From positions 1 through 50,492 of the forward strand of contig JAVZLS010000010.1 of the NCBI GenBank assembly GCA_038883715.1: DNA of 50,492 nt, written 5' to 3'. Positions 17,316 through 41,379 of this stretch are shown here, one piece after another (position 1 is the stretch's first letter; every line of letters starts with the position of its first letter). Both the position numbers and the translations under genes were made by a program. The notes below the pieces were generated by a model that worked only from the letters and a program-made list of their open reading frames with translations, was not told the origin of the DNA and searched no databases. The DNA comes from Candidatus Bathyarchaeia archaeon (GTDB lineage: Archaea > Thermoproteota > Bathyarchaeia > Bathyarchaeales > Bathycorpusculaceae).

Positions 17316-17495
17316 TTAGGGTTTTGGGGCTTGTTTGCGGACGCGCTCCTTCATTAGGCTTAACTCCTTTGCATAGTCCATCAAAGCTATCCTTAAGGTT
17401 TCGCTTTCACTTGTGCCAAGTCTCTTCGAAAGTTCCTCTAATATTTCCTTTTGCTCGGCGCTTAGGACGACTTTCACTATGCGTTTTCTAGGCAT
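17316..17495 (-). CDS. Ribbon-helix-helix (CopG-like) regulator
   Basis: IVKVVLSAEQKEILEELSKRLGTSESETLRIAL; ATG at 17495. Confidence 0.75.
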   Translation of the reverse strand: MPRKRIVKVVLSAEQKEILEELSKRLGTSESETLRIALMDYAKELSLMKERVRKQAPKP

Positions 17496-17587
17496 CACTT
17501 TTGCCTTCAGTGTATTCTGTATATTTAGTATATCAGAAACACTTAAAAGACTTACTCCACAAAATATCAAAGGGGAGAAGCAATAAA

Positions 17588-18019
17588 ATGAAAACGTTGC
17601 GCATATCAGACGACGTCCATCAGAAACTCACCGCTCTGCTCGGCGAGCTTATGGCTCAAACCAGCAAGATGCAAACATACCAAGACGCCATTGAGGCTAT
17701 GCTATACCAGTCGGTTATATTGCCGCCAGAACTCCTAGGCGAGGTTGAACGCTTCATCCAAACCCACAAGGGAAGGGGCTACACAACTAAGGAGGAGTTT
17801 ATCCGCCAGGCGGTGCGCTTCATGCTGAAGTGGGAATCCGGCGAATACGAGTATGTGGAAGTTCCAAGGGAAGACTATGAAAAGCTAAACAAAGCCTTAA
17901 AAGAGATGGACACGCCCTATGCCAATGCTGAAGACTTCATCTACAAGCAGATTCAAAAAGCCCTAGAACAGTACGAGGAATGGCTCAAAAACAAAGAAGG
18001 CGCGAGGAAACGACCATGA
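17588..18019 (+). CDS. Multi-RHH DNA-binding protein
   Basis: KTLRISDDVHQKL, SVILPPELLGEVE..GYTTKEEFIRQAVR and VEVPREDYEKL..YANAEDFI: up to three RHH-like units; ATG at 17588. Confidence 0.7.
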   Translation: MKTLRISDDVHQKLTALLGELMAQTSKMQTYQDAIEAMLYQSVILPPELLGEVERFIQTHKGRGYTTKEEFIRQAVRFMLKWESGEYEYVEVPREDYEKLNKALKEMDTPYANAEDFIYKQIQKALEQYEEWLKNKEGARKRP

Positions 18020-18261
18020 GCCGAGCAGTTCTAACCGCTATATTAGCCGAAATCGGCGTAATGCTAAACGAAACTGAAAAGGAAATGCTTTACCATGAAC
18101 TTTTAGCCTATTTTGGGCTTGTCGGCGCGTTAAACGAGTGTCAAGCCCTAGAAAACGCTTGGCAAGACCCCTACAACAAACGCGAAATAGGGGAATTCAT
18201 AAGGGCTTGGTTAAGGCGAAAACAAAGGCGAAGGGAGGAAATAATGACATGGGTGGTCTAG
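18016..18261 (+). CDS. Hypothetical protein
   Basis: ATGA overlap with the previous gene; 81 aa. Confidence 0.65.
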   Translation: MSRAVLTAILAEIGVMLNETEKEMLYHELLAYFGLVGALNECQALENAWQDPYNKREIGEFIRAWLRRKQRRREEIMTWVV

Positions 18262-18266
18262 GCGTA

Positions 18267-18593
18267 ATGGCTTTTGACGTTTCGCTTATCGCAAGCATCA
18301 TCATAATCCTAATGCTTGTGCTTTTCCTCCTAATCTTCGCCTTCATGGCACTGTCCTTCCTAAAATGGATGAAAGCCTCAGCCTACTACGTGCGGCCGCA
18401 AGCCATAAAAGTGGAGGATTATGCATGTCCAAAATGCGGCTCAAAAGAGCTAGAGCTTGTTGGAAGACGCACAATGAGGTGCAAGAAATGCGGAACAATA
18501 TTTACAATATGCACCCATGCTGCTGAGGAGTATTGGGTTTTCTGGCCCTTCTTCTGGTTCTTTCCCATAATATGGTGGAAAACAAAAGACTAG
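18267..18593 (+). CDS. Membrane-anchored Zn-ribbon protein
   Basis: N-terminal TM helix, CPKCG...CKKCG, aromatic C-terminus. Confidence 0.7.
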   Translation: MAFDVSLIASIIIILMLVLFLLIFAFMALSFLKWMKASAYYVRPQAIKVEDYACPKCGSKELELVGRRTMRCKKCGTIFTICTHAAEEYWVFWPFFWFFPIIWWKTKD

Positions 18594-18746
18594 CCTTTTC
18601 CCATTCTGAAAATTTTGCCATTAGGCCAACGGGTTGGGCCGTGTTTGGGCCAATAGATTTGCCCTTGTGTGGTACAATTCGGCTTTTCATTTTCTTCCGC
18701 GTATTCTTCTGCTGCTGAAAAGCGCGTTAAAGGGGCTGGTGTCTGG

Positions 18747-19949
18747 TTGCCTTGGGAAGTAACCGCCAACTACATTCGCAGTGGCCATCGCAATCCTGAC
18801 GAGTTTGAGCCTGAAAGCCTTCGCACTGTTGTGCTTTCTGATGTTGAGGGGATTAAAGCCATTGTTGGTAAGCCTAAGGGTGGCAAAGGCTCCACAGAAG
18901 TTGTTAGTTTTCTTTTTGATGTTTCTAAGGGCTGGACTTTGGAGAAGGCCAAAGAATGGTTTGAGAGGCATTCTAGGCGTAAAGAGCATTTCTTTGCTGT
19001 TTTGCCCTTCAAAGTGCTTGAAAAAATTGTTGATAAGCCGCTGCGTATCCGCGGTATAGCCTTAACTGCTGGCATGAGCCGAAACTTGAATGTTTACTTG
19101 CCAGAAGAGCTTGAAGCCTTTGCCAGTCGGCTTGTTTCCGCGCCTGTTTATGTGGAGCACGTGGCTGCCGCGAACGCTGTTGGAAAAGTGGTGGACGCCC
19201 ACTGGGATGGGCAGAACCTCTGGTATGAGGCTGAAATCTACGATGACGAAGTTGCCGAAAAAATTCGTAAGGGGCTGATCCGCCATGTGAGCATAGGCGC
19301 CGACTACGAGCGTCTGGATTTTGTTGATGGCAAAATCCCCAAAGGCTTGCACAACGCCGAACTAAGCCTTGTGGCTGTTCCAGGCGTTCCGGAGGCGAAC
19401 ATCCAAATCTTGGAGAGGCTTCAGGAGCAGGGCTTCAGTCCAATAGCTTCAGGCGAGTACATTCTCGGATTCTACCAAGACGTGGAGGCTTTTCTGCCAG
19501 AGCATTTCGCCACTGTTTGGCTTGACCGTGAGAATGGCGTTTTAGCCATCATGGGGCGTCCCAGAGCGGAGCCGGACACCAGCCTTGTTCAGAGCATATT
19601 TTTTGCCAAGGAGAAGATGTGGGATGAGCGGAAAATTAGGGACTGGCTTAGCTTGCATCCAGCCTACATGGCGCCTGTTCCAACGGCTAAAACTTTGAAG
19701 GAGAGTGAGGCTGGTGGTGACAGCGGCGGTAAAGCTGGCTCTGGGGCTGAGGGCTTGTTTGTTAAAAGCGCCAAGCCAATGATTCCCATCGAGGATGTTG
19801 CGAGGATGATAAGGAATGTTTTGCCAAGCCCGATGGTGGAGCGTAGCTGGGGACTTGGTCCCCAAAGAATGTGCCAAGAGCTCCGCGGCGTGCTCTATAA
19901 ACTAAGCAAGCTTGAAGGAGCTGTGAAACAGAATGTTTGTGGGCGTTGA
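18747..19949 (+). CDS. Prohead maturation protease (HK97-type) with flanking repeated domains
   Basis: IRGIAL..GMSRNLNVY, VYVEH (His), AVGKV, HVSIGA (Ser), ELSLVAVPGVPEANI; likely TTG start at 18747. Confidence 0.85.
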   Translation: MPWEVTANYIRSGHRNPDEFEPESLRTVVLSDVEGIKAIVGKPKGGKGSTEVVSFLFDVSKGWTLEKAKEWFERHSRRKEHFFAVLPFKVLEKIVDKPLRIRGIALTAGMSRNLNVYLPEELEAFASRLVSAPVYVEHVAAANAVGKVVDAHWDGQNLWYEAEIYDDEVAEKIRKGLIRHVSIGADYERLDFVDGKIPKGLHNAELSLVAVPGVPEANIQILERLQEQGFSPIASGEYILGFYQDVEAFLPEHFATVWLDRENGVLAIMGRPRAEPDTSLVQSIFFAKEKMWDERKIRDWLSLHPAYMAPVPTAKTLKESEAGGDSGGKAGSGAEGLFVKSAKPMIPIEDVARMIRNVLPSPMVERSWGLGPQRMCQELRGVLYKLSKLEGAVKQNVCGR

Positions 19950-20045
19950 TGAAACTTTCGCGGTTGCCTATGCATGTTTGGGAGTAAGCCAGGATGAACT
20001 GGCTGAAACCGTAAAAAGCCTTTATGTATGGAGGGAGGGTGGCTT

Positions 20046-20477
20046 ATGGCTGACAACACTGGTAAGCCTTGGATGGGTATCGGCGAAACAGACGACCCTA
20101 GGGCCGTTATTGAAACCTTTGAGGCTGCAGCAGCCATAACAAAGGGCGACCCAGTCTATTTAAGTGCTGATGACAAGGTTAGCCCAGCAGCTTCAGCGCA
20201 GGACTGTATTGGCATAGCCCTAAAGAGTGTGGCGGCAGGTGATCCTTGCCCAGTGCTGGTTCGTGGAAGAGTTAAGGTGAAGGTTGGCGGCGCTGTAACC
20301 CGTGGTAAAGCGGTTTACGGTGCTGATTCCAGTAGGCGGGTACTGCAGTTGACAGACCAAGCCGTGAACGAAGGTGGGACAGCAACCTACACCATATACT
20401 ATAACCGCAAGCTTGGGTGGGCTTTGGAGTCTGCCTCTGCGGCTGAAGATCTCATCTTCATCTACGTGGAAAAGTAG
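20046..20477 (+). CDS. Capsid cement/decoration protein (DUF2190-like)
   Basis: FEAAAAITKGDPV, IGIALKSVAAGD, GAVTRG..V and GWALESA motifs; lies directly before the MCP. Confidence 0.75.
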   Translation: MADNTGKPWMGIGETDDPRAVIETFEAAAAITKGDPVYLSADDKVSPAASAQDCIGIALKSVAAGDPCPVLVRGRVKVKVGGAVTRGKAVYGADSSRRVLQLTDQAVNEGGTATYTIYYNRKLGWALESASAAEDLIFIYVEK

Positions 20478-20489
20478 GAGGGACATGTT

Positions 20490-21443
20490 GTGAAACCGAG
20501 GCTTTTTGAGAGTTTAATGGAGACGGACAGCGAGTTCCGCCAGCTCATGGAGAATCTGAGCCGAAGGGCTTCGTCGCACCCTTTTTTGAGGCGTTACTGT
20601 GAGGTAGCCCTTAAAGAGAGGCTTTTCAGCGACACCGTTGGCGCCATTGGGCATATGCATGATACGCTGGTTGAGGCTGCCTACCCAGAAATGATTGGAA
20701 GAGAAATCGTAATGGTGCGTCCCACAACTGAAGCCATGGAAAGATTCCCGTTAGATGAGAAGGCTGTGGCTTATCGTTATGCTGAGGGCGCCTACACGAG
20801 GCTTAGTGGCAAGAAGGTCAGCACCGTGGACGTTTACACAAACATTGTGGCTGAGGCTTCTGAAGTTTGGACTAGGGAGTTTTTGGAAGACGCCACATGG
20901 AATGTTATGGAAACCATGACTGAGAAGGTTGGAAGAGCCCTAGGCGAGGCTGAAACCAACAAGATTCTATCTATGTATGGGGCTATTGCCAATGTGGATT
21001 TGGCTGGCGGCGCCCCAATAGACAATAATGGGCAAGCCCTAAACTGGTCTGGTGTTGTTAAGCTTCATAACGCTGTTAGGGGCGAAAACTGGCGTCCAAC
21101 AGTGCTAGCCCTAAACGAGGTTCAACTCCACCAACTGCTTAACGATGACAAGTTCATTCATGCGCAGTACCTGCCTTCCGAACATGTGGATTTGGAGCGG
21201 GGCGTTGTCGGCAGCGTTTTAGGCATGAAGGTTTTGGCGAGCACCCTAGTGCCTAACGGAGTGGCTTACGCTATAGACACCCGTGTGGCGGCGGTCATGC
21301 TGCTGCGCAGAGACATAACCGTAGAAGACTGGGAGGACCCAAAAACAGGCGAGTTCGGGGTTAGGGCGACAACCCGCTTTGGCTTAGGCGTGCTCCGCAG
21401 CAAGGCCGTGGCCAAAATGGTCAACATTAGCACTTCGCTGTAG
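20490..21443 (+). CDS. Major capsid protein, HK97 fold
   Basis: AYRYAEGA, TREFLEDA, GSVLGMKV and C-terminal RATTRFGLGVLRSKAVAK pattern; synteny. Confidence 0.88.
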   Translation: MKPRLFESLMETDSEFRQLMENLSRRASSHPFLRRYCEVALKERLFSDTVGAIGHMHDTLVEAAYPEMIGREIVMVRPTTEAMERFPLDEKAVAYRYAEGAYTRLSGKKVSTVDVYTNIVAEASEVWTREFLEDATWNVMETMTEKVGRALGEAETNKILSMYGAIANVDLAGGAPIDNNGQALNWSGVVKLHNAVRGENWRPTVLALNEVQLHQLLNDDKFIHAQYLPSEHVDLERGVVGSVLGMKVLASTLVPNGVAYAIDTRVAAVMLLRRDITVEDWEDPKTGEFGVRATTRFGLGVLRSKAVAKMVNISTSL

Positions 21444-21454: not shown

Positions 21455-21751
21455 TTGAAGAATCCTTGGAAAAGGGTGGCGGGTGCATCCTTTATGGAAA
21501 CTCTTGTTGTAAAATGCCAGAAATGCGGCAGAACCCACCATCTGCGAAGCAGACAAGACGCCGTAGTCTGCGACTGCTGGCGCATCTGCCCAATATGCGG
21601 AGAGGAGATGGCGCCCTACACGCCTGACACTGCGCCGAAAACCTATGGGTTGGACGGCTTAAGGGAAATGCAAATCCTGATGGTTTGCACCCGCCACCAC
21701 CCCAATTTTTATGGCACGCAAAAGCCAGTGGAGGTTAGGGCTGATGCGTAA
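21455..21751 (+). CDS. Zn-finger protein
   Basis: CQKC, CDC, CPICG and CTRH metal-ligand motifs. Confidence 0.7.
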   Translation: MKNPWKRVAGASFMETLVVKCQKCGRTHHLRSRQDAVVCDCWRICPICGEEMAPYTPDTAPKTYGLDGLREMQILMVCTRHHPNFYGTQKPVEVRADA

Positions 21752-21983
21752 GCTGGGCGATAGGCTCCACTTGGCGAAGATTGTACTTTCAGAGCTTAAA
21801 AAGCGTCCAATGGGCAGAACAGAGCTGGAGAAGAGGACTATCCGCCAGTTTGGAACCCACAGCGCCTTCGAGGGGATATTCCGATACCTTGTTCAAGGCG
21901 GCTACGTGGCGAAGAGCGAGAGGCGCCACCGTGCGCCATACATGATAACAGAGAAGGGTTTGAAGCTTCTGGAGGGTTTATAG
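21744..21983 (+). CDS. Winged-helix DNA-binding protein
   Basis: RTELEK...FRYLVQGGYV...YMITEKGLKLL; ATG at 21744. Confidence 0.75.
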   Translation: MRKLGDRLHLAKIVLSELKKRPMGRTELEKRTIRQFGTHSAFEGIFRYLVQGGYVAKSERRHRAPYMITEKGLKLLEGL

Positions 21984-21987: not shown

Positions 21988-23205
21988 ATGGGCGGCGTTT
22001 TAAGAAGGCTCATTGAAGCTTTCACTTTGAAGAAGCATAGTGGCTACGCTTCCGTAGAGCCTCAAATGGTCTATGAGACGCCGAGCATTCCGTTGGCTGA
22101 TGTTATGAGGCTTTATGAGCGGGACCCAGCATGCAAGGCAAGCGTAGATCTTTTGGCGGCTTCAGCCGTTGGAATGGGCTTTTACACAACGGTAAACGAG
22201 AACTATGCAAGGGCTGGGGAAGCCAAACGCCTCATAGACCAATTTAACGAAGAGGCTAATTTAGACATGCTCTTATGCGATATGGCAAGAGTTCTAATCG
22301 CCTGTGGAAACGATTTCTGGCTCAAAATAACACCTGAAAGGCTCACAAGCCTCCAGCGGTTGCCAGTGGACGCCGTAGAAAAAATCGAGTACAGCCTAAT
22401 CCAAGATGGCGGACTGAAAATCCCATACAAGGTTGAGGGCTACAAGCTCCGCTTGGCTTATGGCGGCGAAACCCTAAATCCAGAGGCGGTTATCCACTGG
22501 CGAATAAACTGTTTAGGCTCTTCCGGTTTTGGAACAGGTGTTTTACAGGTTCTATTGCATACGCTTGCCTTCTTTTCTGACCGGCGACCAGCCTACGCCT
22601 GGATGAAAGCAAAAATTGAACGCATAATGCCAAAAATCTTTGAGAAGTATGCCGGACCAGACGTTTTGGCTCTTCTGGAGAGGGCTGACGCCGGCACTAT
22701 CCAAAAGTTTGAAAAAGCCATTAAGAGCCGCCCAGAAGAGGGTGTCTGGCTATTCTATAGCGGGAGAGGCGACATAAAACCGCTCACAATAGACCCCAGA
22801 GCCAGATTTGAATATTACATCGACTACATTGTTAACCAGTTCTATCTTGGCTGTGAAACGCCACTGCCGAGGCTTTTCAGCACTCCGGGCTTCACAGAAG
22901 CCAGCGCCAAAGCCGCATTGGAGCTGCAGGATATGCTCATAAAACCCATTCAACGCTACATTAAGCGGCAAGTGGAGCACGCCATTTTCAAGCCCGTTCT
23001 TTTTCAGGCTGGACTGGACCCTGTTGAGGCTGGGGTTCGCCTAAACTGGGGTTCTCCTAAGACGCCCCAGATAAGCGTTGCAGACATGTTGAAAGCCGCC
23101 GAATTGGGGCTTATACGCCCAGAAGAGTTTCGCAAGAACGCCTTAAAGTGGGGTTGGGAGTTGTGGGAGCGCTCCGAAACCACTCCAGAAAGGCGGGAAG
23201 CCTAA
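21988..23205 (+). CDS. Portal protein
   Basis: 405 aa; LYERDP..KASVDLLA, LIACGNDF, VIHWRIN..GFGTG, IKPIQRYIKRQVE: portal-like pattern. Confidence 0.8.
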   Translation: MGGVLRRLIEAFTLKKHSGYASVEPQMVYETPSIPLADVMRLYERDPACKASVDLLAASAVGMGFYTTVNENYARAGEAKRLIDQFNEEANLDMLLCDMARVLIACGNDFWLKITPERLTSLQRLPVDAVEKIEYSLIQDGGLKIPYKVEGYKLRLAYGGETLNPEAVIHWRINCLGSSGFGTGVLQVLLHTLAFFSDRRPAYAWMKAKIERIMPKIFEKYAGPDVLALLERADAGTIQKFEKAIKSRPEEGVWLFYSGRGDIKPLTIDPRARFEYYIDYIVNQFYLGCETPLPRLFSTPGFTEASAKAALELQDMLIKPIQRYIKRQVEHAIFKPVLFQAGLDPVEAGVRLNWGSPKTPQISVADMLKAAELGLIRPEEFRKNALKWGWELWERSETTPERREA

Positions 23206-23316: not shown

Positions 23317-23556
23317 ATGAACCTTCTGCATGTTGGTTTAGGTGTGGGCGCCGCTTTAACCTATGCCTTCCTAGGATTTGCAGCCCAAGATAAGCCCTTC
23401 AACTGGCGAAAGTTCCTACGGACAGTGGCTATTGCGGCTTTCTCCTCGCTTGGCTTGGACTTGGCTGGAATGACCTTTGACGTTTACACAGCCCTTGTTG
23501 GACCAACAGCCATCACAGTTTGGCTTCAGAAGCTTGTGGACACTGCAAAACACTGA
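23317..23556 (+). CDS. Small membrane protein, holin-like
   Basis: 79 aa with 2-3 hydrophobic helices, FNWRKFLRT loop, GGAGGTG RBS. Confidence 0.55.
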   Translation: MNLLHVGLGVGAALTYAFLGFAAQDKPFNWRKFLRTVAIAAFSSLGLDLAGMTFDVYTALVGPTAITVWLQKLVDTAKH

Positions 23557-23578
23557 GAACATGGAGGAGTGCAGCGAA

Positions 23579-23812
23579 ATGAGCCAGGAAGTGCCCTATT
23601 GGCGTTATGAAGAGGCTTTCAAGGCTGTTCACAGCGCCTTATGCGGGCTTATGGCGCCGCCGAGCGGTAAAAGGGTTACTAGGTTGGCGTTTACTTGGAA
23701 CGCTGATGGCACTGTTAACACCATTAAGGCGTTTATGGGCGACGAGCTTCTTTTCTCCCTCACCTTTTCTTGGAATGATGATGGAACCCTGCGGGAGGTG
23801 GCTCGAACATAG
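23579..23812 (+). CDS. Hypothetical virion-associated protein with internal repeat
   Basis: LAFTWNADGTV and LTFSWNDDGTL repeat; GGAGG RBS. Confidence 0.65.
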   Translation: MSQEVPYWRYEEAFKAVHSALCGLMAPPSGKRVTRLAFTWNADGTVNTIKAFMGDELLFSLTFSWNDDGTLREVART

Positions 23813-23860
23813 GCGGCTTGCTGTCCGCTTATGCGAGAAACCCGGAACGGAGGATTGAAA

Positions 23861-24352: not shown

Positions 24353-24369
24353 TCTAAAGGTGAATAATT

Positions 24370-33641: not shown

Positions 33642-33828
33642 GGATTCTAGGCGGACAGTCGTGGAAGTTCGGGAGGACTTGCATCGGGAGGTTCGGAAGT
33701 TGGCATTGTTGAATGATTTGAGGATTTATCAGCTTGTAAACGCCATAATCGAGGATTACTTGAGGGACGGTGAGCGGGTGAAAGCCCTAATAAAGAGGCT
33801 TAGGCTTCAGTTTCCGCCTCCACCTTGA
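33634..33828 (+). CDS. Small RHH regulator
   Basis: TVVEVREDLHREVRKLALLNDLRIYQLVNAIIEDYL. Confidence 0.65.
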   Translation: MSRDSRRTVVEVREDLHREVRKLALLNDLRIYQLVNAIIEDYLRDGERVKALIKRLRLQFPPPP

Positions 33829-34982: not shown

Positions 34983-35528
34983 TTGACTTTTTTCCATGAT
35001 TTTGTTGGGCGTGTTGTCAACTCTTTGGAGAAAGTTGGGATACATTATGCTTTTACTGGTGCTTTGGCTGCCAGCTTTTACGGAGTTCCCAGAACAACAG
35101 TGGACGTTGACGTAATTGTTTTTCTGCAGGGCGAATCGGATAAGGTTAAGCTTGTTTCGGCTCTTAGGGATGCGGGATTAGACGCCGACACGCAAAAGAT
35201 TGAAAAAGCCTTAAGGTCCGGATATAGGATAGCCTCCTTTAAGGATGGGCGGACGCCTTACACCCTCGACGTAATCCTTTCAGAAAGGAAATTTAAGAGA
35301 AGGTCTGGGAGGTTGGACGAGTTTAAGGCACACTTCCAAACGCCTGAAGATCTTGTTTTGGCTAAGCTTCGCATGATTAGGGCAACCATGCCAAGGGAAA
35401 GAGCCCAAAAAGACATAGAAGACATAAAAGCCATACTAAAATTCACAAAAGTGGACATAGAAGCGGTTAGAAAACAAGCCAAAAAAGAAGACACTCTCCA
35501 AATTCTTGAAGACTTAGTGATTAAGTGA
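34983..35528 (+). CDS. Nucleotidyltransferase (DUF6036/AbiEii-like), putative TA component
   Basis: TGALAASFYGVPRTTVDVD, PEDLVLAKL and KDIEDI motifs. Confidence 0.8.
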   Translation: MTFFHDFVGRVVNSLEKVGIHYAFTGALAASFYGVPRTTVDVDVIVFLQGESDKVKLVSALRDAGLDADTQKIEKALRSGYRIASFKDGRTPYTLDVILSERKFKRRSGRLDEFKAHFQTPEDLVLAKLRMIRATMPRERAQKDIEDIKAILKFTKVDIEAVRKQAKKEDTLQILEDLVIK

Positions 35529-35849
35529 AGTGCAAAGTAATCCTCTGTTTTGTTGGGCATAAAAAGAAGGTTTACGAAGACCTGACAAAAATGTTTTAGG
35601 CTTTATTTCGGTTATGACCTTTTAACACATGGTTCGTTGGTTAAAAATTTGTATTTTGTATTTTTGTTTTTTAACGAAATATAATGTTTTATCCTCTTTC
35701 AACTTATTATGCTTTAAAATCGTCGAAAATTCAGAAATCGCCAATTTTTAACAATATTATCTATTCACAATTTACATATTTTTTCTTTGTGATTTTATTC
35801 GAGAAACGTTTATAAGCTACAATACACTGTTTGATTCTGCTGTGGGAAA

Positions 35850-36257
35850 GTGATGGAAGAACTGCGCAGAAAATTCATAGTTGAAGAAAAGCTTGATGAG
35901 AAAATGATAACCGAATACATAGAACGCTCCCTTAGATTTGGTAAAGTATCAATTGATGGAGGCGTTATTATCGAAAAAGAAGGAATGGCAACAAAAGATC
36001 AGATTGGTTTAGCTGTAGTCATGAGACTTTTGGCAAATCGCTTGGAAAAGGGAATTTCTGCAGAGGTGAACACCAAGGAACTTTCTCAGAACTTGGGTAT
36101 TCCTGAAGATCAAGTAGCAGCAAGGCTTGCGGATTTAAGGGATGAGGGGGTTGTTATAAGGGTTGATAAGGGTGTTTACAGGGCAAACCCAACCCGAGTC
36201 GGAAGGTTTCTTGATTATTTAGAAGACAAATACTTGAAGGAGAGTGAGAAGAAATGA
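35850..36257 (+). CDS. Winged-helix protein
   Basis: TKELSQNLGIPEDQVAARLADLRDEGVVIRVDKGVY. Confidence 0.75.
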   Translation: MMEELRRKFIVEEKLDEKMITEYIERSLRFGKVSIDGGVIIEKEGMATKDQIGLAVVMRLLANRLEKGISAEVNTKELSQNLGIPEDQVAARLADLRDEGVVIRVDKGVYRANPTRVGRFLDYLEDKYLKESEKK

Positions 36258-36700
36258 CTGAAACAAGCTACAGGTTCAAGTATAAAAAGGGTGATTTTGA
36301 GATTGAAATTCAAGGCGACAAGGAATGGGTTGAGAAGAAATTCAAAGAAGTTATGGGAGAAAAAATCATTGAACCTGCGACTTTAATTGCAAAAGTAAAA
36401 GCGCTCCCTGATTCCTTGGTTGAATTCCTTAAAATTAAGGGTGACCCAAAAGAGCATATCGACAGAATAATTGTTTTTTCGTACTGGCTTTTTTACAAAG
36501 AGAATCTTAAATCTTACAATGTTGATGATATTGAGCGATGTTACGACGAGACTAGAATAGCAAAGCCTACCAACATTCATGCCTTTATGAACGATCTGCA
36601 AGCGAAAGGATACTTAAAACCCGCAGGAGAGAAGGACGGCAAAAAAGCGTGGGTAGTTACTAGAACTGGAGAAGAGTATGTCGAAAAAATGGGAGGATGA
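36254..36700 (+). CDS. Hypothetical protein with C-terminal winged helix
   Basis: EIEIQGDKEWV N-domain; KGYL...WVVTRTGEEYVE wing; ATGA overlap. Confidence 0.7.
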   Translation: MTETSYRFKYKKGDFEIEIQGDKEWVEKKFKEVMGEKIIEPATLIAKVKALPDSLVEFLKIKGDPKEHIDRIIVFSYWLFYKENLKSYNVDDIERCYDETRIAKPTNIHAFMNDLQAKGYLKPAGEKDGKKAWVVTRTGEEYVEKMGG

Positions 36701-36704
36701 AAAT

Positions 36705-37490
36705 ATGGCATTAACGCTTGAAGATTTTGCTAAAAAATTAGTTGATTTAGGGATTGATAAAGAGGTAATTAATCGCCTAATTGAATATTACAAAGAAGTC
36801 AAGAAGGCACACCTTTCTAATAAATGCAAAGATGTTATTCGATATGCAGGACAATTTTCTGAGGTTATTCTTGCGCTGATTGAAAATAAAGTTTCTGAAA
36901 AGAGTGTTAACGTGGATAAGGTTGAATTTGAAAAACTATACAAGAAAATTTTGAACTATCCAAAATCAAATGCTAAGGATGAAATATTAACTCTGGCAAT
37001 GCCAAGAGTTGCCCGGTCTGTTTACACTTTACGTAATAAAAAAGATGTTGTTCATGTTAAAACAGTGGACCCTGATTTTATTGATTCTGTGTACTGTGTA
37101 ACAGCTTGCGACTGGATGTTATCTGAACTTGCCTTTTTATTGTTGAAAGCTGATGAAAGAGAAGTTTACGGACTAATAAACTCTGTTCTTAAGAAAAAGG
37201 TTCCATTAATAGAAGAATTCGAAGATGGAACCATCGTTGTTCTTAAGGAAGGTCTATCATGGGCTGACGAAATTTTACTGGCTTTATATCACTACTATCC
37301 ACAAAGATTGAGAAGACAAGAATTAGAAAAAATCTTAAAGACATCATCAAACATCATATATACTTATCTCCAGCGTCTCGAAAACAAGAGACTAATTCAT
37401 AGGACAGACGAAGGCAGTAAATTGACACAGCTTGGAATAAAATACGTTGAAGAAAATCTACTAATAAAACAAGAAAACTCTGAGGTATAA
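36705..37490 (+). CDS. Putative HEPN-like domain + C-terminal winged helix
   Basis: YTLRNKKDVVH (Rx6H), C-terminal LTQLGIKYVE; GGAGG RBS before ATG 36705. Confidence 0.65.
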   Translation: MALTLEDFAKKLVDLGIDKEVINRLIEYYKEVKKAHLSNKCKDVIRYAGQFSEVILALIENKVSEKSVNVDKVEFEKLYKKILNYPKSNAKDEILTLAMPRVARSVYTLRNKKDVVHVKTVDPDFIDSVYCVTACDWMLSELAFLLLKADEREVYGLINSVLKKKVPLIEEFEDGTIVVLKEGLSWADEILLALYHYYPQRLRRQELEKILKTSSNIIYTYLQRLENKRLIHRTDEGSKLTQLGIKYVEENLLIKQENSEV

Positions 37491-37603: not shown

Positions 37604-37996
37604 ATGAGGGAGGTTGTTAGGCGGGTTAGGGAGTTAAGTCTTGGTGATTTGGTTCGTGTTGAGTGGTTTGACGCTAGTATAGGCAAAAGCCTCAGCGGTG
37701 GTTTGAACGGCATAGACGTTCCTGTTGTCAGCTGGGGCATATTTCTAGGCGTTTTGGGTTCTAAGAACCGGCATATTATTTTGGCTCAGAACTGTTTTCG
37801 TTATGCTGATGGCTTCTACGACATTGATTATACGGCTGTGCCACTGGCTTGGACAAGCAACACCAATGTAATCGCCAAAGCCCATGTCCAACCCGAAGAA
37901 GCCAAACAGCTCCTAAACAGCTTCTTGGTGGGCGGAAAACGCGCCTCAATAAAGGGCAAGAAGTACCACCAACAGAGGGTTGAAAACCATGCCTGA
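37604..37996 (+). CDS. Hypothetical virus-type protein
   Basis: GDLVRVEWFDAS...SWGIF small beta-barrel pattern; first gene of the terminase operon. Confidence 0.7.
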   Translation: MREVVRRVRELSLGDLVRVEWFDASIGKSLSGGLNGIDVPVVSWGIFLGVLGSKNRHIILAQNCFRYADGFYDIDYTAVPLAWTSNTNVIAKAHVQPEEAKQLLNSFLVGGKRASIKGKKYHQQRVENHA

Positions 37997-38219: not shown

Positions 38220-38235
38220 AGGGGGTATCCAATTT

Positions 38236-38604
38236 ATGCCTAAAAAAGCACGTAAATTGATGATAACCCGCCGAATAGCCGAACTCCGCCAAGAATTCCA
38301 GATAAACACGCAGCAACTGCGAACAAAAACCATCCAGAACCTCCAAGAGCTTTTCAACATTGCCATGTCCCTAGCGAAAGGCGAAGTAAAAACCCAAACA
38401 GCCAATGGAAAAACCGAGAAAATAACCCTAAAACAAAGGCAAATGTGGGCACGCATAGCCACATACATCGCCCAAACTATAAACAGCATCTCCAACACCT
38501 TCGACGAGCGCAAAATTGACGAAGACTTGGCTAAACTGGAGGAACTAATAAATGAAGCAGCGGCAAAAACAAAAACTCCGCCAACTGGAACAGGCGCTTG
38601 CTGA
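38236..38604 (+). CDS. Putative terminase small subunit
   Basis: 122 aa, helical and basic, directly upstream of and overlapping TerL; positional call only. Confidence 0.5.
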   Translation: MPKKARKLMITRRIAELRQEFQINTQQLRTKTIQNLQELFNIAMSLAKGEVKTQTANGKTEKITLKQRQMWARIATYIAQTINSISNTFDERKIDEDLAKLEELINEAAAKTKTPPTGTGAC

Positions 38605-39916
38605 AGCCCTAACGCCGCCCATACCAGCAGACCCAATAGAATTCTGCACCCAAATCCTAGGCTTCCAACCAACCCAGTACCAAACAGACCTAATCCGCCA
38701 GTTCCAAACCAGCCAATTCACAGCCGCCAGATGGTGCCGCCAAAGCGGAAAAACCCAAACAGTATCCGCCCTGCTGCTACACTACGCACTAACAAACCCA
38801 AACACGCAGATAGGCATAGTTGGACCAAGCTGGCGCCAAACAAAACACGTTATTAGACGGATAAACGCGCTCCTAAAAAGGCTCCCAAAAGGCTTATACG
38901 AAAAACCCCAGCAAACGGCGGTACGCCTAAAAAACGGAAGCATAATAGAGGCTTATCCGAACAATCCGGAAACAATACGCGGACCAACACTAAACGTGGT
39001 CTACGCAGACGAATTCAATTTTATACCAAACGACAAAGAACTCTACGACGCCATACTCTTTACATTAAGCGCCACCAACGGAAAATTCATATGCACATCA
39101 ACGCCATGGCACACAGACAGCATTTTTTGGCGGATTTGGCATGACCCAGCCTACAGCGATTATGCGAAAAGCCACGTCACCCACCAACAAGCCACAGAAC
39201 CCAACGGACCATTAAAACGCGAAATCCTACAAAAGATTAGGCGCCAGCTGGAAAACGACCAGTGGCGATGGCAACGCGAAATGCAAGCAGAATGGGCAGA
39301 AGACCAAAACACATGGCTAACCCAAACCCTAATAGTAGCCTGTATAGACCCAACCCTAGAATACTCAGCCTACAACAAACCCGCCCAAGGACGGTTCTAC
39401 GCAGGACTAGACCTAGGAAAACACCAAGACCCCAGCGTATTGGCAGTACTAAACCAAGAACAAGACAACACCCTAAGGCTAGTACACATGCATAGATTCC
39501 CACTAAAAACGCCATACGCCACAGTAATAGGCTATACAAAAACCCTATGCGAAAAATGGCAAACCACCCAAAAACTCCTAGTGGACATGACAGGAGTAGG
39601 CGAATACATAGTAGAAGACATGAAAAACACAGGCATGAACACCCAAATAGAGGGCATAAAATTCACCCAAGAAACAAAAGAGCAACTTGCCAACAACCTA
39701 AAACAACTCATGACTGAAAAGCGCCTAAAAATTCCCTACGACCCAGAACTAATAGCAGAACTAAACACAGAACGCTACCAACTAACAAAAGAAGGCAAAA
39801 TACGCCTAACCCACCCAGAAGGCACCCACGACGACCGCTTCTGGAGCCTAGCACTAGCAGCATACGCCCCAAAAACCCAACCGCCAACACCCGCCCTATG
39901 GATAGTGCCAAAATGA
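38552..39916 (+). CDS. terL: Terminase large subunit
   Basis: PTQYQ, Walker A RQSGKT, Walker B VVYADE, STP coupling motif, nuclease GLDLG..D and HDDRFWSLALA. Confidence 0.93.
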   Translation: MKQRQKQKLRQLEQALAEALTPPIPADPIEFCTQILGFQPTQYQTDLIRQFQTSQFTAARWCRQSGKTQTVSALLLHYALTNPNTQIGIVGPSWRQTKHVIRRINALLKRLPKGLYEKPQQTAVRLKNGSIIEAYPNNPETIRGPTLNVVYADEFNFIPNDKELYDAILFTLSATNGKFICTSTPWHTDSIFWRIWHDPAYSDYAKSHVTHQQATEPNGPLKREILQKIRRQLENDQWRWQREMQAEWAEDQNTWLTQTLIVACIDPTLEYSAYNKPAQGRFYAGLDLGKHQDPSVLAVLNQEQDNTLRLVHMHRFPLKTPYATVIGYTKTLCEKWQTTQKLLVDMTGVGEYIVEDMKNTGMNTQIEGIKFTQETKEQLANNLKQLMTEKRLKIPYDPELIAELNTERYQLTKEGKIRLTHPEGTHDDRFWSLALAAYAPKTQPPTPALWIVPK

Positions 39917-41379
39917 AACGCCAAAGCGAAACCTTCCAAATCCAAAAAATAAAACGCCGATACGACCAAAAAACAGGCAAATTCATAATAAACATAGCCT
40001 ACAAAACAGCCCCACCAAAACCAACAAAACGCGTCCAAGCCATAGCAGAAGCCTTCGGACTAGGCATAGACCAAACAACAAAATTCACCATATACGAAAA
40101 CCTAGAACTAAAAATAGGAGTGGGCGACATAGTCTACATAACAGGCGAAAGCGGCTCAGGAAAAAGCATCCTTTTAAAGGCCCTAGAAAAAGACATCCGA
40201 AAACACACGCCCTACACATGCATAAATATCAAGCAAATAAAAACCCCACCCAAAAAGCCCATAATAGAAACAGTGGGCAAAACCTTCCAACAAGCCCTAG
40301 AACTCCTAAGCCTAGTAGGCCTAAACGACGCCTTCCTATTCCTCCGCACCTATCGGCAACTCAGCGAAGGACAAAAATACCGATACAAAATCGCCAAACT
40401 AATAGAAAGCCAAGCCCAATTCTGGATACTAGACGAGTTCGCAGCAACCCTAGACCGCGACACAGCAAAAATAGTGGCATACAACCTCCAAAAAACAGCA
40501 AGACGCATGGGAAAAACAGTTATAGCCGCCACAACCCACACAGACCTCCACGAAGACCTAAACCCATCAGTCCACATCCACAAAAAATTCGGCAAAGAAA
40601 TAACAGTCCACCACCAACCAAACACACCAGCAAAAGAATGCAGCCTAACCCGAGAAATACACATAGAACAAGGCACAAAAGCCGACTACAAGGCTTTAAG
40701 CCAATTCCACTACCGCTCAAGCCACCTGCCACCGCCAAGAAAAATCTTCGCCATGAAACGCGAAGAAGAAACATGCGGAGTAATCGTCTACAGCCACCCG
40801 CCGCCAACAATGTTCGGCAGAAGCCAAGTCTGGAAAGGAAACCACCAACAACTCCAAGAACAAGTCAGCACAATAACCCGAGTAATAATACACCCAAAAT
40901 ACCGCGCAATAGGCTTAGGCACAAAACTCGTCAAAGAAACCCTACAATTAGCTGGAACACCCTACGTGGAAACACTGGCAGTTATGGCAAAATACAACCC
41001 CTTCTTTGAAAGGGCTGGAATGCAAAAAATAGCCGAAAGCAAACCCAACCCCCATCTGCAAAAAGCCACAGAAAAGCTGGAAGCCCTAGGATTCAAGCCC
41101 TACATGCTCCAAAACCAAAAATACAACATGGAAAAGATAAGCGAAATCGGCAGAAGCGAGATCATAAAAATCCTAACCGAACTTTCAGAGAAAGGCGTCA
41201 TCCCAAGAAAAAGAATCATATCAGCAAGCAAAACCTACCCAAGCCACACGGAATTCAAAGAAAAAATAGAAAAGCTAAACAGTGAAGGGCTGGCAAAAGT
41301 GCTGAAAAGGCTAAGCTTCCTAATGCAAACAAAAGTTTACCTTTTCTGGGCTAAAGACTGGCTTAACGCCGGGAAGTAG
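39913..41379 (+). CDS. ABC-type ATPase fused to GNAT acetyltransferase
   Basis: GESGSGKS, LSEGQK, WILDEF, TTH; then FHYRS and RVIIHPKYRAIGLGTKLV; ATGA-coupled to terL. Confidence 0.85.
   Translation: MKRQSETFQIQKIKRRYDQKTGKFIINIAYKTAPPKPTKRVQAIAEAFGLGIDQTTKFTIYENLELKIGVGDIVYITGESGSGKSILLKALEKDIRKHTPYTCINIKQIKTPPKKPIIETVGKTFQQALELLSLVGLNDAFLFLRTYRQLSEGQKYRYKIAKLIESQAQFWILDEFAATLDRDTAKIVAYNLQKTARRMGKTVIAATTHTDLHEDLNPSVHIHKKFGKEITVHHQPNTPAKECSLTREIHIEQGTKADYKALSQFHYRSSHLPPPRKIFAMKREEETCGVIVYSHPPPTMFGRSQVWKGNHQQLQEQVSTITRVIIHPKYRAIGLGTKLVKETLQLAGTPYVETLAVMAKYNPFFERAGMQKIAESKPNPHLQKATEKLEALGFKPYMLQNQKYNMEKISEIGRSEIIKILTELSEKGVIPRKRIISASKTYPSHTEFKEKIEKLNSEGLAKVLKRLSFLMQTKVYLFWAKDWLNAGK

What the first reader, a model, noticed from the sequence alone, without database searches (positions are those of the whole stretch)
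17316..41379. Candidate domesticated head-tail particle system (GTA-like) in an archaeon
Seen: an apparently intact particle-building set (protease, cement protein, HK97 MCP, portal, adaptor, closure, terminator, tube, frameshifted TAC, gp10-like, TMP, hub, TerS/TerL). I found no integrase, primase, helicase or polymerase and no flanking att repeat. The set falls into three blocks (head 17.6-26.3 kb, tail 27.5-33.8 kb, packaging 37.6-41.4 kb), separated by cellular-type genes (DUF5305-like, dapA-like) and TA/defence-like genes. Established: structural genes kept without replication or integration genes, plus a short tail, is the profile of gene transfer agents such as RcGTA; the characterised archaeal example is VTA of Methanococcus voltae. 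Inference: this is a host-maintained particle system rather than an autonomous provirus.
Basis: partly seen in the sequence, partly recalled or inferred. Interest (0 to 1): 0.92.

Follow-up and report, generated by a model that had tools for sequence, protein, structure and literature searches.

The report
Inherited virus-particle genes in Bathyarchaeia
A set of virus head, tail and DNA-packaging genes without any integration or replication genes sits at one fixed chromosomal place in a whole family of hot-spring archaea, is kept in working order by selection in some lineages and is rotting in others, which makes it a serious but unproven candidate for an archaeal gene transfer agent.

Summary
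Window 17.3-41.4 kb carries cement protein, HK97 capsid, portal, tube, Neck1/gp10-like, hub and TerL by Pfam/PHROGs. It also has a conserved -1 frameshift in the tail chaperone. No integrase, replication gene or att repeat was found. "TerL to 41379" is wrong: 39898-41379 is an ABC-ATPase/GNAT fusion.

Comparative work supports most of the interpretation. The set lies beside the same RR/HK/small-protein flank in all 14 genomes of the genus and in at least 10 of 20 other family genomes examined. All 19 locus-fixed copies form one clade that excludes 11 virus-type copies. One of those appears to be the published 33-kb provirus BATPV1, which carries an integrase and a helicase. dN/dS is 0.03-0.15, like host genes. 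In three Bathy6 species the packaging genes lie about 20 kb from the head-tail genes, across cellular genes, and are still under selection.

Against it: of 20 judgeable loci, 7 are intact, 5 damaged and 8 remnants. Particles and packaged DNA were not observed. Verdict: a domesticated, GTA-like particle system is the best reading (about 0.55). It is a new variant of a known kind.

The parts
17316..17570 (-). RHH (CopG-type) regulator; left end of the element; kept even in most remnants
   Evidence: PF01402 1.5e-5. Adjacent to the protease in virus-type copies too. Retained in remnants G011, G010 and G001.
17501..18593 (+). Three small genes (172, 93 and 151 aa; the last is a Zn-ribbon membrane protein). 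The 172-aa gene is of viral origin.
   Evidence: Homologues of p172 occur in virus-type copies L051, L081 and L064. dN/dS 0.05-0.08 against G004/G006.
18669..19949 (+). Candidate prohead protease, possibly with a scaffold part. The true start is probably near codon 27.
   Evidence: No Pfam hit. Atlas score 0.92 with 178 shared features to Peptidase_S78 clusters. Stops in relatives lie only at query positions 25 or lower. The profile found nothing in PDB.
20028..20477 (+). Capsid cement/decoration protein
   Evidence: PF09956 1.1e-12, PF22758 7e-9.
20490..21443 (+). HK97-fold major capsid protein
   Evidence: PF05065 5.7e-7; phrog_267 1.9e-13; dN/dS 0.03-0.04.
21455..21983 (+). Two small conserved genes (98-aa Zn ribbon, 90 aa) between the capsid and portal genes
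   Evidence: Conserved in most resident and virus-type copies.
21988..23205 (+). Portal protein
   Evidence: PF04860 4.4e-5, below cut-off. Position and conservation fit. dN/dS 0.05.
23317..26285 (+). Small membrane protein, a phrog_23653 protein (23831-24352) and four fast-evolving genes (24370-26285). These may be fibre or host-recognition genes.
   Evidence: phrog_23653 6.4e-39. Identity 51-92%, dS 0.8 to saturated; the region is missing or replaced in G013. The function is inferred only.
26282..27295 (-). DUF5305 membrane protein, inserted between the head and tail blocks
   Evidence: PF17231 5.9e-12. Absent from the compact virus-type copy and from G006.
27536..27889 (+). Candidate head-tail adaptor
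   Evidence: Phage_connect_1 E=0.031, below cut-off. Nearest Atlas clusters are viral.
27895..29717 (+). A 461-aa protein with an alpha/alpha-toroid-like domain, and a 152-aa protein. By position these are connector or tail-terminator genes.
   Evidence: PF06662 9.5e-7, PF07470 0.004. Conserved in virus-type copies at 52-70%. Roles unverified.
29724..30593 (+). Tail tube protein
   Evidence: PF18906 3.5e-15; phrog_290 4e-16.
30590..31134 (+). Tail assembly chaperone G and G-T, with a programmed -1 frameshift at T_TTT_TTA (30925-30931)
   Evidence: The heptamer and -1 extension are conserved in 21 of 24 distinct relatives.
31119..31484 (+). HK97 gp10-like / Neck1 tail completion protein
   Evidence: PF04883 4.7e-7; phrog_5 6e-21.
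31481..32023 (+). Candidate tape measure protein (180 aa, hydrophobic), which would imply a short tail
   Evidence: Position and composition only. Full-length homologue in the compact virus-type copy, 59%.
32025..33641 (+). Hub/distal tail (YQBQ-like) protein
   Evidence: PF24032 1.1e-12; phrog_400 3.2e-14. dS 1.5-1.7 with dN/dS 0.12-0.14.
33625..34714 (.). Small RHH-like gene (33625-33828, +) and a DHDPS-family gene (33800-34714, -), inserted after the hub gene
   Evidence: PF00701 4e-81. Both are absent from the compact virus-type copy. A paralogue with 37% identity lies on C7.
34983..37490 (+). Island specific to this genome: AbiEii-type nucleotidyltransferase, an AbiEi-like wHTH protein and two unknown genes. 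GC is 0.37.
   Evidence: PF08843 2.1e-5, PF13338 1.6e-5. No match in the five syntenic loci first compared (G013, G004, G008, G006, G021). AbiEii-type genes at 55-58% identity do occupy this slot in G011, G012 and G064. GC.
37604..37996 (+). Conserved 130-aa protein that always precedes the terminase genes. The model shows a small beta-barrel plus a helix.
   Evidence: dN/dS 0.03-0.08. Model pLDDT 79. No PDB fold match at E<=0.001.
38236..38604 (+). Candidate TerS (by position only), with divergent alleles
   Evidence: No family hit. 60% identity to genus relatives, whereas TerL is 96-98% identical.
38552..39916 (+). Large terminase
   Evidence: PF03237 7e-16, PF17289 8e-10; phrog_2 3e-42; dN/dS 0.08-0.10. 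Stretches resembling Walker A and B, read by eye in the translation, rest on recalled motif definitions.
39898..41379 (+). ABC-type ATPase fused to a GNAT acetyltransferase. It is a conserved member of the packaging block in viruses and in resident copies.
   Evidence: PF00005 1.8e-13, PF00583 4e-6. The PDB profile hits only ABC ATPases. 50-67% identity in virus-type copies.
41363..42211 (-). Nucleotidyltransferase (NTP_transf_2/DUF4037) at the right border
   Evidence: PF01909 9.9e-6. Present in G004, G006 and G003; fragmented in G011.

Best explanation
This is a domesticated derivative of a BATPV1-like tailed virus of Bathyarchaeia. The virus integrated once, beside a response-regulator/histidine-kinase locus, in an ancestor of this archaeal family. 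It then lost its integrase and its helicase/methylase module and has since been inherited with the chromosome.

In lineages such as the window's, the host keeps a full set of genes for a DNA-filled head with a short tail. That set comprises protease, cement, capsid, portal, connector, tube, frameshifted chaperone, tape measure, hub and a packaging block of four genes: the 130-aa protein, the candidate TerS, TerL and the ABC-GNAT fusion.

The most likely use is a gene-transfer-agent-like particle that packages cellular DNA. Shown here: the gene content, the lack of mobility genes, the fixed locus, a largely host-like phylogeny, purifying selection and the split layout. Inferred: that particles are made, that they hold host DNA and that they deliver it.
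For: 1. Content. See the observation check.

2. No mobility genes. The two integrase hits of the assembly are both on C7. 0 of 10 non-structural proteins of the compact provirus match the window. No att-like repeat was found.

3. Fixed locus. All 14 genomes of the genus hold the set or its remnants next to small107/small112/RHH. So do 10 of 20 other family genomes examined, plus G061-G065.

4. One origin. In a cement+MCP+portal tree of 62 rows, all 19 locus-fixed rows fall in one clade of 26 (SH-aLRT 98). All 11 virus-type rows fall outside it.

5. Order of branching. The head genes, the flank genes (RR, small112, NrdR, NrdD, HK) and RpoB give broadly the same order.

6. Selection against G004 and G006. 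dN/dS is 0.03-0.04 for MCP, 0.05 for portal, 0.08-0.10 for TerL, 0.08-0.11 for tube and 0.12-0.14 for hub. Host genes give 0.07-0.09 (HK) and 0.03-0.05 (NrdD), at dS of 0.2-0.7.

7. Split layout in three Bathy6 species. The intact packaging block lies 20-23 kb from the head-tail block, on the other side of the host flank. Cellular-looking ORFs lie between, judged by eye from their first residues. The whole span is about 40 kb. All particle genes there have dN/dS of 0.03-0.17 at dS of 0.4-1.6.

8. The frameshift signal and TerL, portal and capsid are all retained, which points to DNA-filled tailed particles rather than a tail-only bacteriocin.
Against: 1. Of 20 loci that can be judged, only 7 are intact (G000, G004, G006, G064, G061-63).
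- Five are damaged. G013 has a TerL/ABC-GNAT deletion and a gp10-like frameshift. G034 has a protease frameshift, a hub stop and a TerL stop. G021 has lost most tail genes. G035:C102 and G065 keep the head genes only.
- Eight are remnants (G001, G002, G007, G010, G011, G012, G015, G016).
The system is therefore dispensable in many lineages.

2. The head-gene data reject one host/flank split, {G031, G034, G035, Bathy6} (p-AU 5e-5). Some exchange between lineages or a wrong host tree remains possible.

3. RpoB is a single marker. In several genomes it lies only 40-50 kb from the locus.

4. The capsid protein and the candidate tape measure are as long as in the 33-kb virus. The window's cluster is about 24 kb and could fit into such a head, so the GTA criterion of a head too small for its own genes is not met in the window.

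5. No lysis gene, no regulator link and no particle, RNA or packaged-DNA evidence were obtained.
Confidence: 0.55

Rival explanations
1. It is a cryptic provirus remnant with no use to the host. It became stuck after losing its integrase and is slowly eroding. The intact copies are simply the lineages that erosion has not yet reached.
For: 13 of 20 judgeable loci are damaged or reduced to remnants, each with different deletion ends. Even the window's nearest relative, G013 (RpoB 99%), has lost half of TerL and has a frameshifted gp10-like gene. Toxin-antitoxin-type genes (AbiE, RHH) in the locus could delay its loss.
Against: Neutral decay predicts dN/dS near 1 and broken frames at dS of 0.5-1.6. 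Observed values are 0.03-0.17 for about 20 genes in two separate groups of species. The programmed frameshift signal is conserved. Intact sets persist in three deep branches of the resident clade.
Confidence: 0.2
2. It is still a selfish, transmissible virus of an unusual kind. It has no integrase of its own and either uses one in trans or re-enters by homologous recombination at the same locus. Selection would then act on the virus, not for the host.
For: The cluster in the window (about 24 kb) would fit a head built for about 33 kb (PMC11705971 gives 33,358 bp for BATPV1). One node of the head-gene tree conflicts with the flank and RpoB trees (p-AU 5e-5). dS of MCP, TerL and protease (0.12-0.38) is lower than that of HK (0.67-0.72) against G004/G006. 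The candidate TerS alleles are swapped. The own genome has a BATPV1-like integrase (50% identity) on C7.
Against: No att repeat and no integrase were found at any resident locus examined. Every resident copy sits at the same place, and the resident copies form one clade apart from the virus-type copies. Lineage-specific cellular and defence genes are inserted inside the element. In Bathy6 the two halves are 20 kb apart across cellular genes and still under selection. No replication gene was found.
Confidence: 0.15
3. It is domesticated, but for a use other than gene transfer, for example a killer particle or a stress-induced lysis or DNA-release device.
For: Host-level selection is shown but the cargo is not. 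Defence-type genes (AbiE) sit inside the locus. PMC5797428 (passage read) raises both GTA-like and killer-particle readings for similar immobile elements in Thaumarchaeota.
Against: TerL, portal, capsid and the packaging block are under purifying selection as strong as or stronger than that on tube, hub and the 461-aa protein. A tail-only killer device does not need them (established knowledge of tailocins, recalled).
Confidence: 0.1

Closest known systems
BATPV1 (Bathyarchaeia tailed provirus 1, JAAKEZ010000002_pro, 33,358 bp; PMC11705971, passages read)
   Same: Same gene families. Apart from the genes inserted in the window, the order is the same: protease, cement, MCP, portal, adaptor, 461-aa protein, tube, chaperone, gp10-like, tape measure, hub, 130-aa protein, TerL, ABC-GNAT. 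Identity to the window in the compact copy L048-L050 is MCP 70%, portal 62% and TerL 48%. The MCP of that copy is letter for letter that of L114, a locus on the contig named for BATPV1. The paper's coordinates were not seen, so equating the copy with BATPV1 is inferred.
   Different: The compact copy is 15 kb of structural genes followed by a methylase, a UvrD-type helicase-nuclease, a PIN protein and a tyrosine integrase. It lies away from the RR/HK locus. The window lacks all of these genes, is fixed at one locus and is interrupted by DUF5305, DHDPS and an AbiE island.
RcGTA-type gene transfer agents of Alphaproteobacteria (PMC5721377, PMC6821227 and PMC10883770: abstracts seen; details recalled)
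   Same: A head-tail gene cluster of viral origin without integration or replication genes. It is inherited vertically, under purifying selection, has incomplete clusters in many relatives, and has genes at more than one locus (here in Bathy6).
   Different: This is an independent origin in another domain of life. Neither a small head nor random packaging is shown. The packaging block holds an ABC-ATPase/GNAT fusion and a 130-aa protein with no known GTA counterpart. Decay is frequent even within one genus.
VTA of Methanococcus voltae (named in PMC5797428 and in the abstracts; details recalled)
   Same: An archaeal, tailed, virus-like particle linked to gene transfer.
   Different: VTA is defined by a transfer phenotype and by particles, whereas this element is defined only by genes. 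No sequence comparison with VTA was made here.
Immobile head-tail provirus-derived elements of Thaumarchaeota (Ca. Nitrosocaldus cavascurensis, Nitrososphaera viennensis; PMC5797428, passage read)
   Same: Intact-looking morphogenesis genes with no integrase, att site or replication genes. Its authors speculate about GTA-like or killer-particle domestication.
   Different: As far as the passage read shows, those are single-genome observations. Here the element is traced across a family, with remnants, trees and dN/dS. Homology to those elements was not tested.

Membership tests
Gene transfer agent (functional class) | Head-tail structural and packaging genes of viral origin are encoded in the host chromosome | tested here: met
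   Pfam and PHROGs hits. The window is the whole contig C10, with cellular genes on both sides.
Gene transfer agent (functional class) | No genes for own replication, integration or excision; no att sites | tested here: met
   PF00589 is found only on C7. 0 of 10 non-structural proteins of the compact virus-type copy match the window. No flanking repeat was found. This is negative evidence from sequence searches.
Gene transfer agent (functional class) | Vertical inheritance with the host | tested here: met
   Same locus in 14 of 14 genus genomes and in several other genera. The resident copies form one clade. The trees are broadly alike, with one rejected split. The host tree rests on one marker plus linked flank genes.
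Gene transfer agent (functional class) | Purifying selection on the particle genes while they are resident | tested here: met
   dN/dS is 0.03-0.18 in the genus and 0.03-0.17 among three Bathy6 species with the split layout. These are NG86 pairwise estimates only.
Gene transfer agent (functional class) | The head holds less DNA than the genes needed to make the particle | tested here: inconclusive
   MCP and the candidate tape measure have the same length as in the 33-kb virus. The window cluster spans about 24 kb and the Bathy6 loci about 40 kb. Head size is unknown.
Gene transfer agent (functional class) | Particles package random host DNA and deliver it to recipients | not testable with these tools
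   No listed run is on record as RNA and none as a virus fraction; two carry a metatranscriptomic label that the tool marks as probably DNA. All runs laid were assembled contigs.
Gene transfer agent (functional class) | Production is under host regulatory control | not testable with these tools
   Only adjacency to a response regulator/histidine kinase pair and an RHH gene is seen. No functional link is shown.
BATPV1-like tailed viruses of Bathyarchaeia (autonomous temperate Caudoviricetes) | Homologous morphogenesis and packaging module | tested here: met
   Collinear, at 43-70% identity. The trees place the window among relatives of these viruses.
BATPV1-like tailed viruses of Bathyarchaeia (autonomous temperate Caudoviricetes) | Tyrosine integrase and a helicase/methylase module within one contiguous element of about 33 kb | tested here: not met
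   The window is therefore a derivative of such a virus, not a member.
RcGTA family (by homology) | Orthology to the RcGTA head-tail cluster genes | not tested
   No RcGTA sequence was compared. The shared Pfam families (HK97 capsid, portal, terminase) are general to tailed viruses.

The most novel reading that the evidence does not exclude
This may be the first archaeal gene-transfer-agent-type system whose genes are known. It would be a virus captured once at the base of a Bathyarchaeia family. Selection has kept it as a one- or two-locus particle factory in several genera, including cultivable-scale Bathy6 lineages, and other lineages have shed it repeatedly. Its packaging operon carries an unexplained ABC-ATPase/acetyltransferase. 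It also shows a mitochondrion-like strand skew that may mark antisense control or local single-strandedness.
Probability: 0.4. Interest if true: 0.88.

Novelty: new variant of a known kind. Interest (0 to 1): 0.74.

Why it matters
Gene transfer agents are well studied in bacteria. In archaea, as far as I recall, the only characterised case (VTA of Methanococcus voltae) is known by its phenotype and not by its genes.

Bathyarchaeia are abundant sediment and hot-spring archaea with few tools and few known viruses. If this reading holds, there is a gene set to look for in metagenomes, particle fractions and enrichments. It would offer a route to explain gene flow in this class.

It would also be a natural series for studying how a virus is domesticated and how selection is later relaxed: intact, split, head-only and remnant states all occur at one locus.

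My full-text searches found no paper that describes it. 'Gene transfer agent' + archaea + Bathyarchaeia gave one unrelated paper. The Bathyarchaeia virus and provirus papers describe autonomous viruses and one defective provirus on another contig. Their supplementary tables could not be opened, so I cannot exclude that one of them lists this locus.

Tried and rejected
1. Sequencing runs. 17 rows hold part of the stretch. All are labelled hot springs metagenome, and no RNA holder is listed. Two carry a metatranscriptomic label that the tool marks as probably DNA.

2. Laying four runs on 16001-36000. Only short assembled contigs were available. The listed joints have sides of 21-80 letters, mostly under 30. 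No excision, empty-site or circular junction could be read, and depth is not usable. I draw no conclusion from this.

3. Protease. The profile found no PDB match at E<=1. The AlphaFold model had pLDDT 53 and was not used for a fold search.

4. The 130-aa protein. The profile search found nothing meaningful. The fold search gave no hit at E<=0.001 and the best TM-score was 0.45.

5. An early idea that the genus had swapped in a foreign packaging module was withdrawn. It rested on TerL being only 37-39% identical in G034/G021 but 58% in some IMG/VR contigs. Resident copies in G064 (69%) and Bathy6 (66-68%) are closer still. G034 and G021 sit on a long branch with deviant composition.

6. The clade tests for {G034,G035}, {G031,G034,G035} and {G021,G019,G031,G034,G035} were badly posed. 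The Bathy6 rows, which belong with G035 in the flank tree, were left outside, and the host positions of G064 and G065 are unknown. I rely only on the re-posed tests.

7. In one search one row (L063) was labelled 'locus-fixed' by similarity and shared insertions, not by a visible flank. 8 of 70 loci were dropped because a gene was cut by a locus end.

8. G003 gave the same dN/dS as G006 to three digits, and the RpoB of G006 equals that of G009. These genomes are not independent.

9. small112 belongs to a multi-copy family. 'Nothing next to small112' in 9 family genomes may reflect a wrong paralogue, a short view or true absence. G024, G026 and G036 were not examined.

10. No CRISPR array was found in the own assembly with a simple k-mer scan, so no spacer test was possible.

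11. A+C-rich blocks elsewhere in the genome turned out to be surface-protein genes or the opposite strand of membrane-protein genes. Amino-acid make-up can therefore cause such blocks. The four-fold-site skew in TerL/ABC-GNAT cannot be explained that way.

Supplementary files of papers are closed, so the BATPV1 coordinates and host tables were not seen.

Full report
WHAT IS THERE

The window is a whole 50,492-bp contig (C10) of a 1.33-Mb, 41-contig assembly that is 90% complete. Relatives found by capsid similarity are titled Candidatus Bathyarchaeia or Bathyarchaeota MAGs. Public runs that hold the stretch are labelled hot springs metagenome.

The host genes on the left are TldD/PmbA, NrdG/NrdD/NrdR, a GNAT, a response regulator, a 1306-aa histidine kinase and two paralogous small genes (16427-17187). 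The host genes on the right are a second TldD/PmbA pair, a GNAT, a membrane protein and tRNA-Ile/tRNA-Arg.

Between them, Pfam and PHROGs confirm these genes:
- an RHH regulator;
- a cement protein;
- an HK97 capsid protein;
- a portal (below Pfam's cut-off);
- a tail tube;
- a Neck1/gp10-like protein;
- a YQBQ-like hub protein;
- a large terminase.

The 'protease' has no Pfam hit. It resembles Peptidase_S78 clusters in the protein Atlas (0.92, 178 shared features), which is a lead and not a proof. The 'adaptor' has only a sub-threshold Phage_connect_1 hit. 'Closure', 'terminator', 'TMP' and 'TerS' rest on position.

The tail chaperone frameshift is real but lies in the -1 frame. The heptamer T_TTT_TTA is at 30925-30931 and the -1 frame is open to 31134. 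The heptamer and the extension are conserved in 21 of 24 distinct relatives, resident and viral alike.

WHAT IS MISSING

- The only two tyrosine-recombinase hits of the assembly lie on contig C7.
- The related compact provirus carries, after its ABC-GNAT gene, a DNA methylase, a 914-aa UvrD-type helicase with a PD-(D/E)XK nuclease, a PIN protein and a 422-aa integrase. None of 10 proteins from that module has a match in the window.
- No direct repeat links the two borders.
- All particle genes are single-copy in the assembly.

WHERE ELSE IT OCCURS

The capsid gene is found in 26 of 61 related genomes, including the window's own, and in 6 of 13 genomes of the same genus (one of these hits is weak). 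That looks patchy, but the loci tell a different story.

In G013, G004, G008, G006 and, from another genus, G021, the element lies between the same host genes. Its nucleotide identity is like that of the flanks: for G004, 88% in the flanks and head and 79.5% in the tail.

The 'capsid-negative' genus members hold remnants at the same place:
- G011 keeps RHH joined to the small RHH gene, then DHDPS, AbiEii and fragments of ABC-GNAT.
- G010 keeps the first genes, the start of the protease and the last 55 codons of TerL.
- G001 keeps 20 codons of RHH.
- G012, G002 and G007 keep DHDPS beside the small genes.

G003, G005 and G009 hold the element, cut by contig ends. So 14 of 14 genus genomes have the element or its wreck at this locus. 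On an RpoB tree the remnant genomes are interleaved with intact ones, which implies at least four separate deletions.

Outside the genus the same junction (small genes, RHH, protease, cement, capsid, portal) is seen in G025, G031, G021, G019, G034, G035 (contig C102), G022 (C88) and G028. Remnants occur in G016 and G015. This is 10 of 20 other family genomes examined. The junction is also present in G061-G065, reached through named loci that include three Bathy6 genomes.

VIRUS-TYPE RELATIVES

Other copies are compact and lie elsewhere. The best seen is L048-L050: protease to ABC-GNAT in 15 kb, without DUF5305, DHDPS or the small RHH gene, followed by the helicase-integrase module.

Its capsid sequence is identical to that of a locus on the contig for which PMC11705971 reports the 33,358-bp temperate provirus BATPV1. 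I read passages of that paper, not its supplements or figures.

IMG/VR holds 33 further loci with capsids 66-97% identical. Some of these include the host flank and are thus the resident element.

ONE ORIGIN, MOSTLY VERTICAL DESCENT

In a cement+capsid+portal tree (62 rows; 8 of 70 dropped), the 19 locus-fixed rows fall in one clade of 26 rows (SH-aLRT 98). The other 7 rows of that clade have no visible flank. The 11 virus-type rows all lie outside.

A 20-row careful tree with the protease added gives the same picture. Its order of branching matches that of the flank genes and, unrooted, of RpoB. That order runs from Bathy6/G035 to G034, then G019 and G031, then G021, G025 and the genus.

There is one conflict. 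The head genes place G031 with G021 and the genus, and they reject the flank/RpoB split {G031, G034, G035, Bathy6} (p-AU 5e-5). The split {genus, G025, G021} is not rejected (p = 0.52). Within the genus, G004+G008 is recovered and G000+G013 is not rejected (p = 0.06).

The host tree is weak evidence. It uses one protein, and that gene lies within 50 kb of the locus in several genomes.

SELECTION

Against G004 and G006 (dS 0.2-0.7 for most genes), dN/dS is as follows (NG86 pairwise):

| Gene | dN/dS |
|---|---|
| capsid | 0.03-0.04 |
| portal | 0.05 |
| cement | 0.05-0.10 |
| TerL | 0.08-0.10 |
| tube | 0.08-0.11 |
| tape measure candidate | 0.11-0.12 |
| hub | 0.12-0.14 |
| 461-aa protein | 0.13-0.14 |
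| 130-aa protein | 0.05-0.08 |
| ABC-GNAT | 0.18 |
| HK (host) | 0.07-0.09 |
| NrdD (host) | 0.03-0.05 |
| neighbouring GNAT (host) | 0.13 |

Hub, the phrog_23653 protein and the four genes at 24.4-26.3 kb have dS of about 0.8 to saturated. The TerS candidate is only 60% identical to the other genus alleles although TerL next to it is 96-98% identical. These parts look exchanged or fast-evolving.

THE SPLIT LAYOUT

In three Bathy6 species the head-tail block lies beside the response regulator and the small genes, as elsewhere. The intact packaging block (130-aa protein, TerS candidate, TerL at 66-68%, ABC-GNAT) lies 20-23 kb away, on the other side of that flank.

The ORFs in between look cellular. 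I judged them by eye, from their first residues, to include an alcohol-dehydrogenase-like protein, a nitroreductase and a cytidylyltransferase-like protein. Only the nitroreductase also matched a window protein. The two blocks span about 40 kb.

Among the three species, every particle gene has dN/dS of 0.03-0.17 at dS of 0.4-1.6. A provirus cut in two by 20 kb of cellular genes cannot leave as a unit. Selection on both halves is therefore hard to explain other than at the level of the host.

DECAY

Among loci that can be judged:
- Seven are intact: G000, G004, G006, G064 and G061-63.
- Five are damaged:
  - G013: a deletion of about 1 kb joins TerL codon 258 to ABC-GNAT codon 137, and the gp10-like gene is frameshifted.
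  - G034: protease frameshift, hub stop at codon 392, TerL stop at codon 418, no ABC-GNAT.
  - G021: most tail genes are gone.
  - G035:C102 and G065: head genes only.
- Eight are remnants.

The stops that tblastn flagged in the protease, chaperone and a few others lie before the likely true starts.

READING

The data fit one capture of a BATPV1-like virus in a family ancestor, followed by loss of its mobility module and vertical descent. Long-term selection has kept a complete DNA-packaging tailed particle in some lineages, and the element has been lost repeatedly where that selection lapsed.

This is the evolutionary profile described for bacterial GTAs (abstracts of PMC5721377, PMC6821227 and PMC10883770 seen; details recalled). 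It is also the profile raised as a speculation for immobile head-tail elements in Thaumarchaeota (PMC5797428, passage read).

What is not shown is the defining behaviour: particles, random host DNA in them, and transfer. Nor is there any sign that the head has shrunk. I therefore put a domesticated, GTA-like system at about 0.55, a useless remnant in slow decay at 0.2, an unconventional but still selfish virus at 0.15, and domestication for another use at 0.1.

AN UNEXPLAINED EXTRA

The packaging block and the oppositely oriented nucleotidyltransferase gene (38.2-42.2 kb) have a strong strand skew.

Base shares at four-fold degenerate sites:

| Gene | A | C | G | T |
|---|---|---|---|---|
| TerL | .50 | .35 | .12 | .03 |
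| ABC-GNAT | .46 | .39 | .10 | .06 |
| NTase (read on its own, minus, strand) | .15 | .17 | .25 | .42 |
| capsid | .15 | .30 | .24 | .31 |

The plus strand is therefore A+C-rich whichever way the gene runs, which points to mutation and not to codon choice. This is the longest block of its kind in the assembly.

Whole-gene base shares of TerL in other copies:

| TerL copy | A | C | G | T |
|---|---|---|---|---|
| G021 (resident) | .44 | .34 | .09 | .13 |
| G034 (resident) | .39 | .36 | .12 | .14 |
| Bathy6 (resident) | milder skew | | | |
| G064 (resident) | no skew | | | |
| compact virus-type copy L049 | .21 | .22 | .32 | .25 |

The pattern is that expected if the minus strand had suffered C-to-T and A-to-G changes while single-stranded, as in vertebrate mitochondrial DNA (recalled). 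Persistent antisense transcription from the nucleotidyltransferase side, or local one-way replication, are ideas only.

Noticed in passing
window 37951-41550, weaker to 42211: Extreme strand skew. The plus strand is A+C-rich whatever the gene direction. T is 3-6% at four-fold sites of TerL and ABC-GNAT, and the NTase gene on the minus strand mirrors this. It is the longest such block in the 1.33-Mb assembly. The same skew occurs in TerL of resident copies G004/G006, G034 and G021 (G only 9%). It is milder in Bathy6 and absent in G064 and in the viral TerLs. The pattern resembles mitochondrial-type deamination asymmetry. The cause is unknown.
   Followed up: partly
window 39898-41379, and relatives L049, L058, L078, L192, L196: An ABC-type ATPase fused to a GNAT acetyltransferase always follows TerL, both in virus-type copies and in resident copies. 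Identity is 50-89% and dN/dS 0.08-0.20. It has no known role in packaging.
   Followed up: partly
window 38236-38604; G061 versus G062/G063: The candidate small terminase has sharply divergent alleles beside a nearly identical TerL. It is 60% identical within the genus where TerL is 96-98%. In Bathy6, dN is 0.57-0.61 between G061 and G062/G063 but 0.009 between G062 and G063. This looks like allele replacement of the presumed DNA-recognition subunit.
   Followed up: partly
window 27895-29280: A 461-aa protein with a C5-epimerase_C/GH88-like (alpha/alpha toroid) domain sits between the adaptor and the tube genes. It is conserved in virus-type copies at 52-70%. It may be a glycan-acting enzyme carried in the virion.
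   Followed up: no
window 42619-43996: The second TldD gene is split into two overlapping frames (193 and 282 aa). G004, G006 and G013 have one open frame of 457-461 aa there. This is either a frameshift or an assembly error in the window.
   Followed up: partly
window 33625-33828 and 34983-35528; G064 (L192): In G064 the small RHH gene and the AbiEii-type nucleotidyltransferase are direct neighbours, so they are probably a toxin-antitoxin pair. In the window's genus the DHDPS gene lies between them. The slot between them and the 130-aa gene holds different cargo in each genome: the AbiE island in the window, and a virus-like methylase in G013 and G004.
   Followed up: partly
window 16427-17187 and many places in relatives: The two small genes that mark the left junction (107 and 112 aa, 46% alike, no Pfam hit) belong to a family with 1-9 matches per genome across the order. 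Their function is unknown.
   Followed up: no
own genome C7:58762-59940, C7:29020-29892 and a fragment on C1:34579-34892: There are tyrosine integrases 50% and 38% identical to that of the compact virus-type copy (BATPV1-type), about 30 kb apart on C7, plus a fragment on C1. This suggests another integrated element in the same genome. No capsid gene lies there.
   Followed up: no
G003 versus G006 (L034, L023-25); RpoB of G006 versus G009: Sequences of different species representatives are identical or give identical dN/dS to three digits. These MAGs are not independent samples.
   Followed up: no
L058, L060, L062, L066, L068, L078 (IMG/VR): This is a second virus-type gene order. The portal is followed directly by the 130-aa gene, the TerS candidate, TerL and ABC-GNAT, with no tail genes between them.
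   Followed up: no
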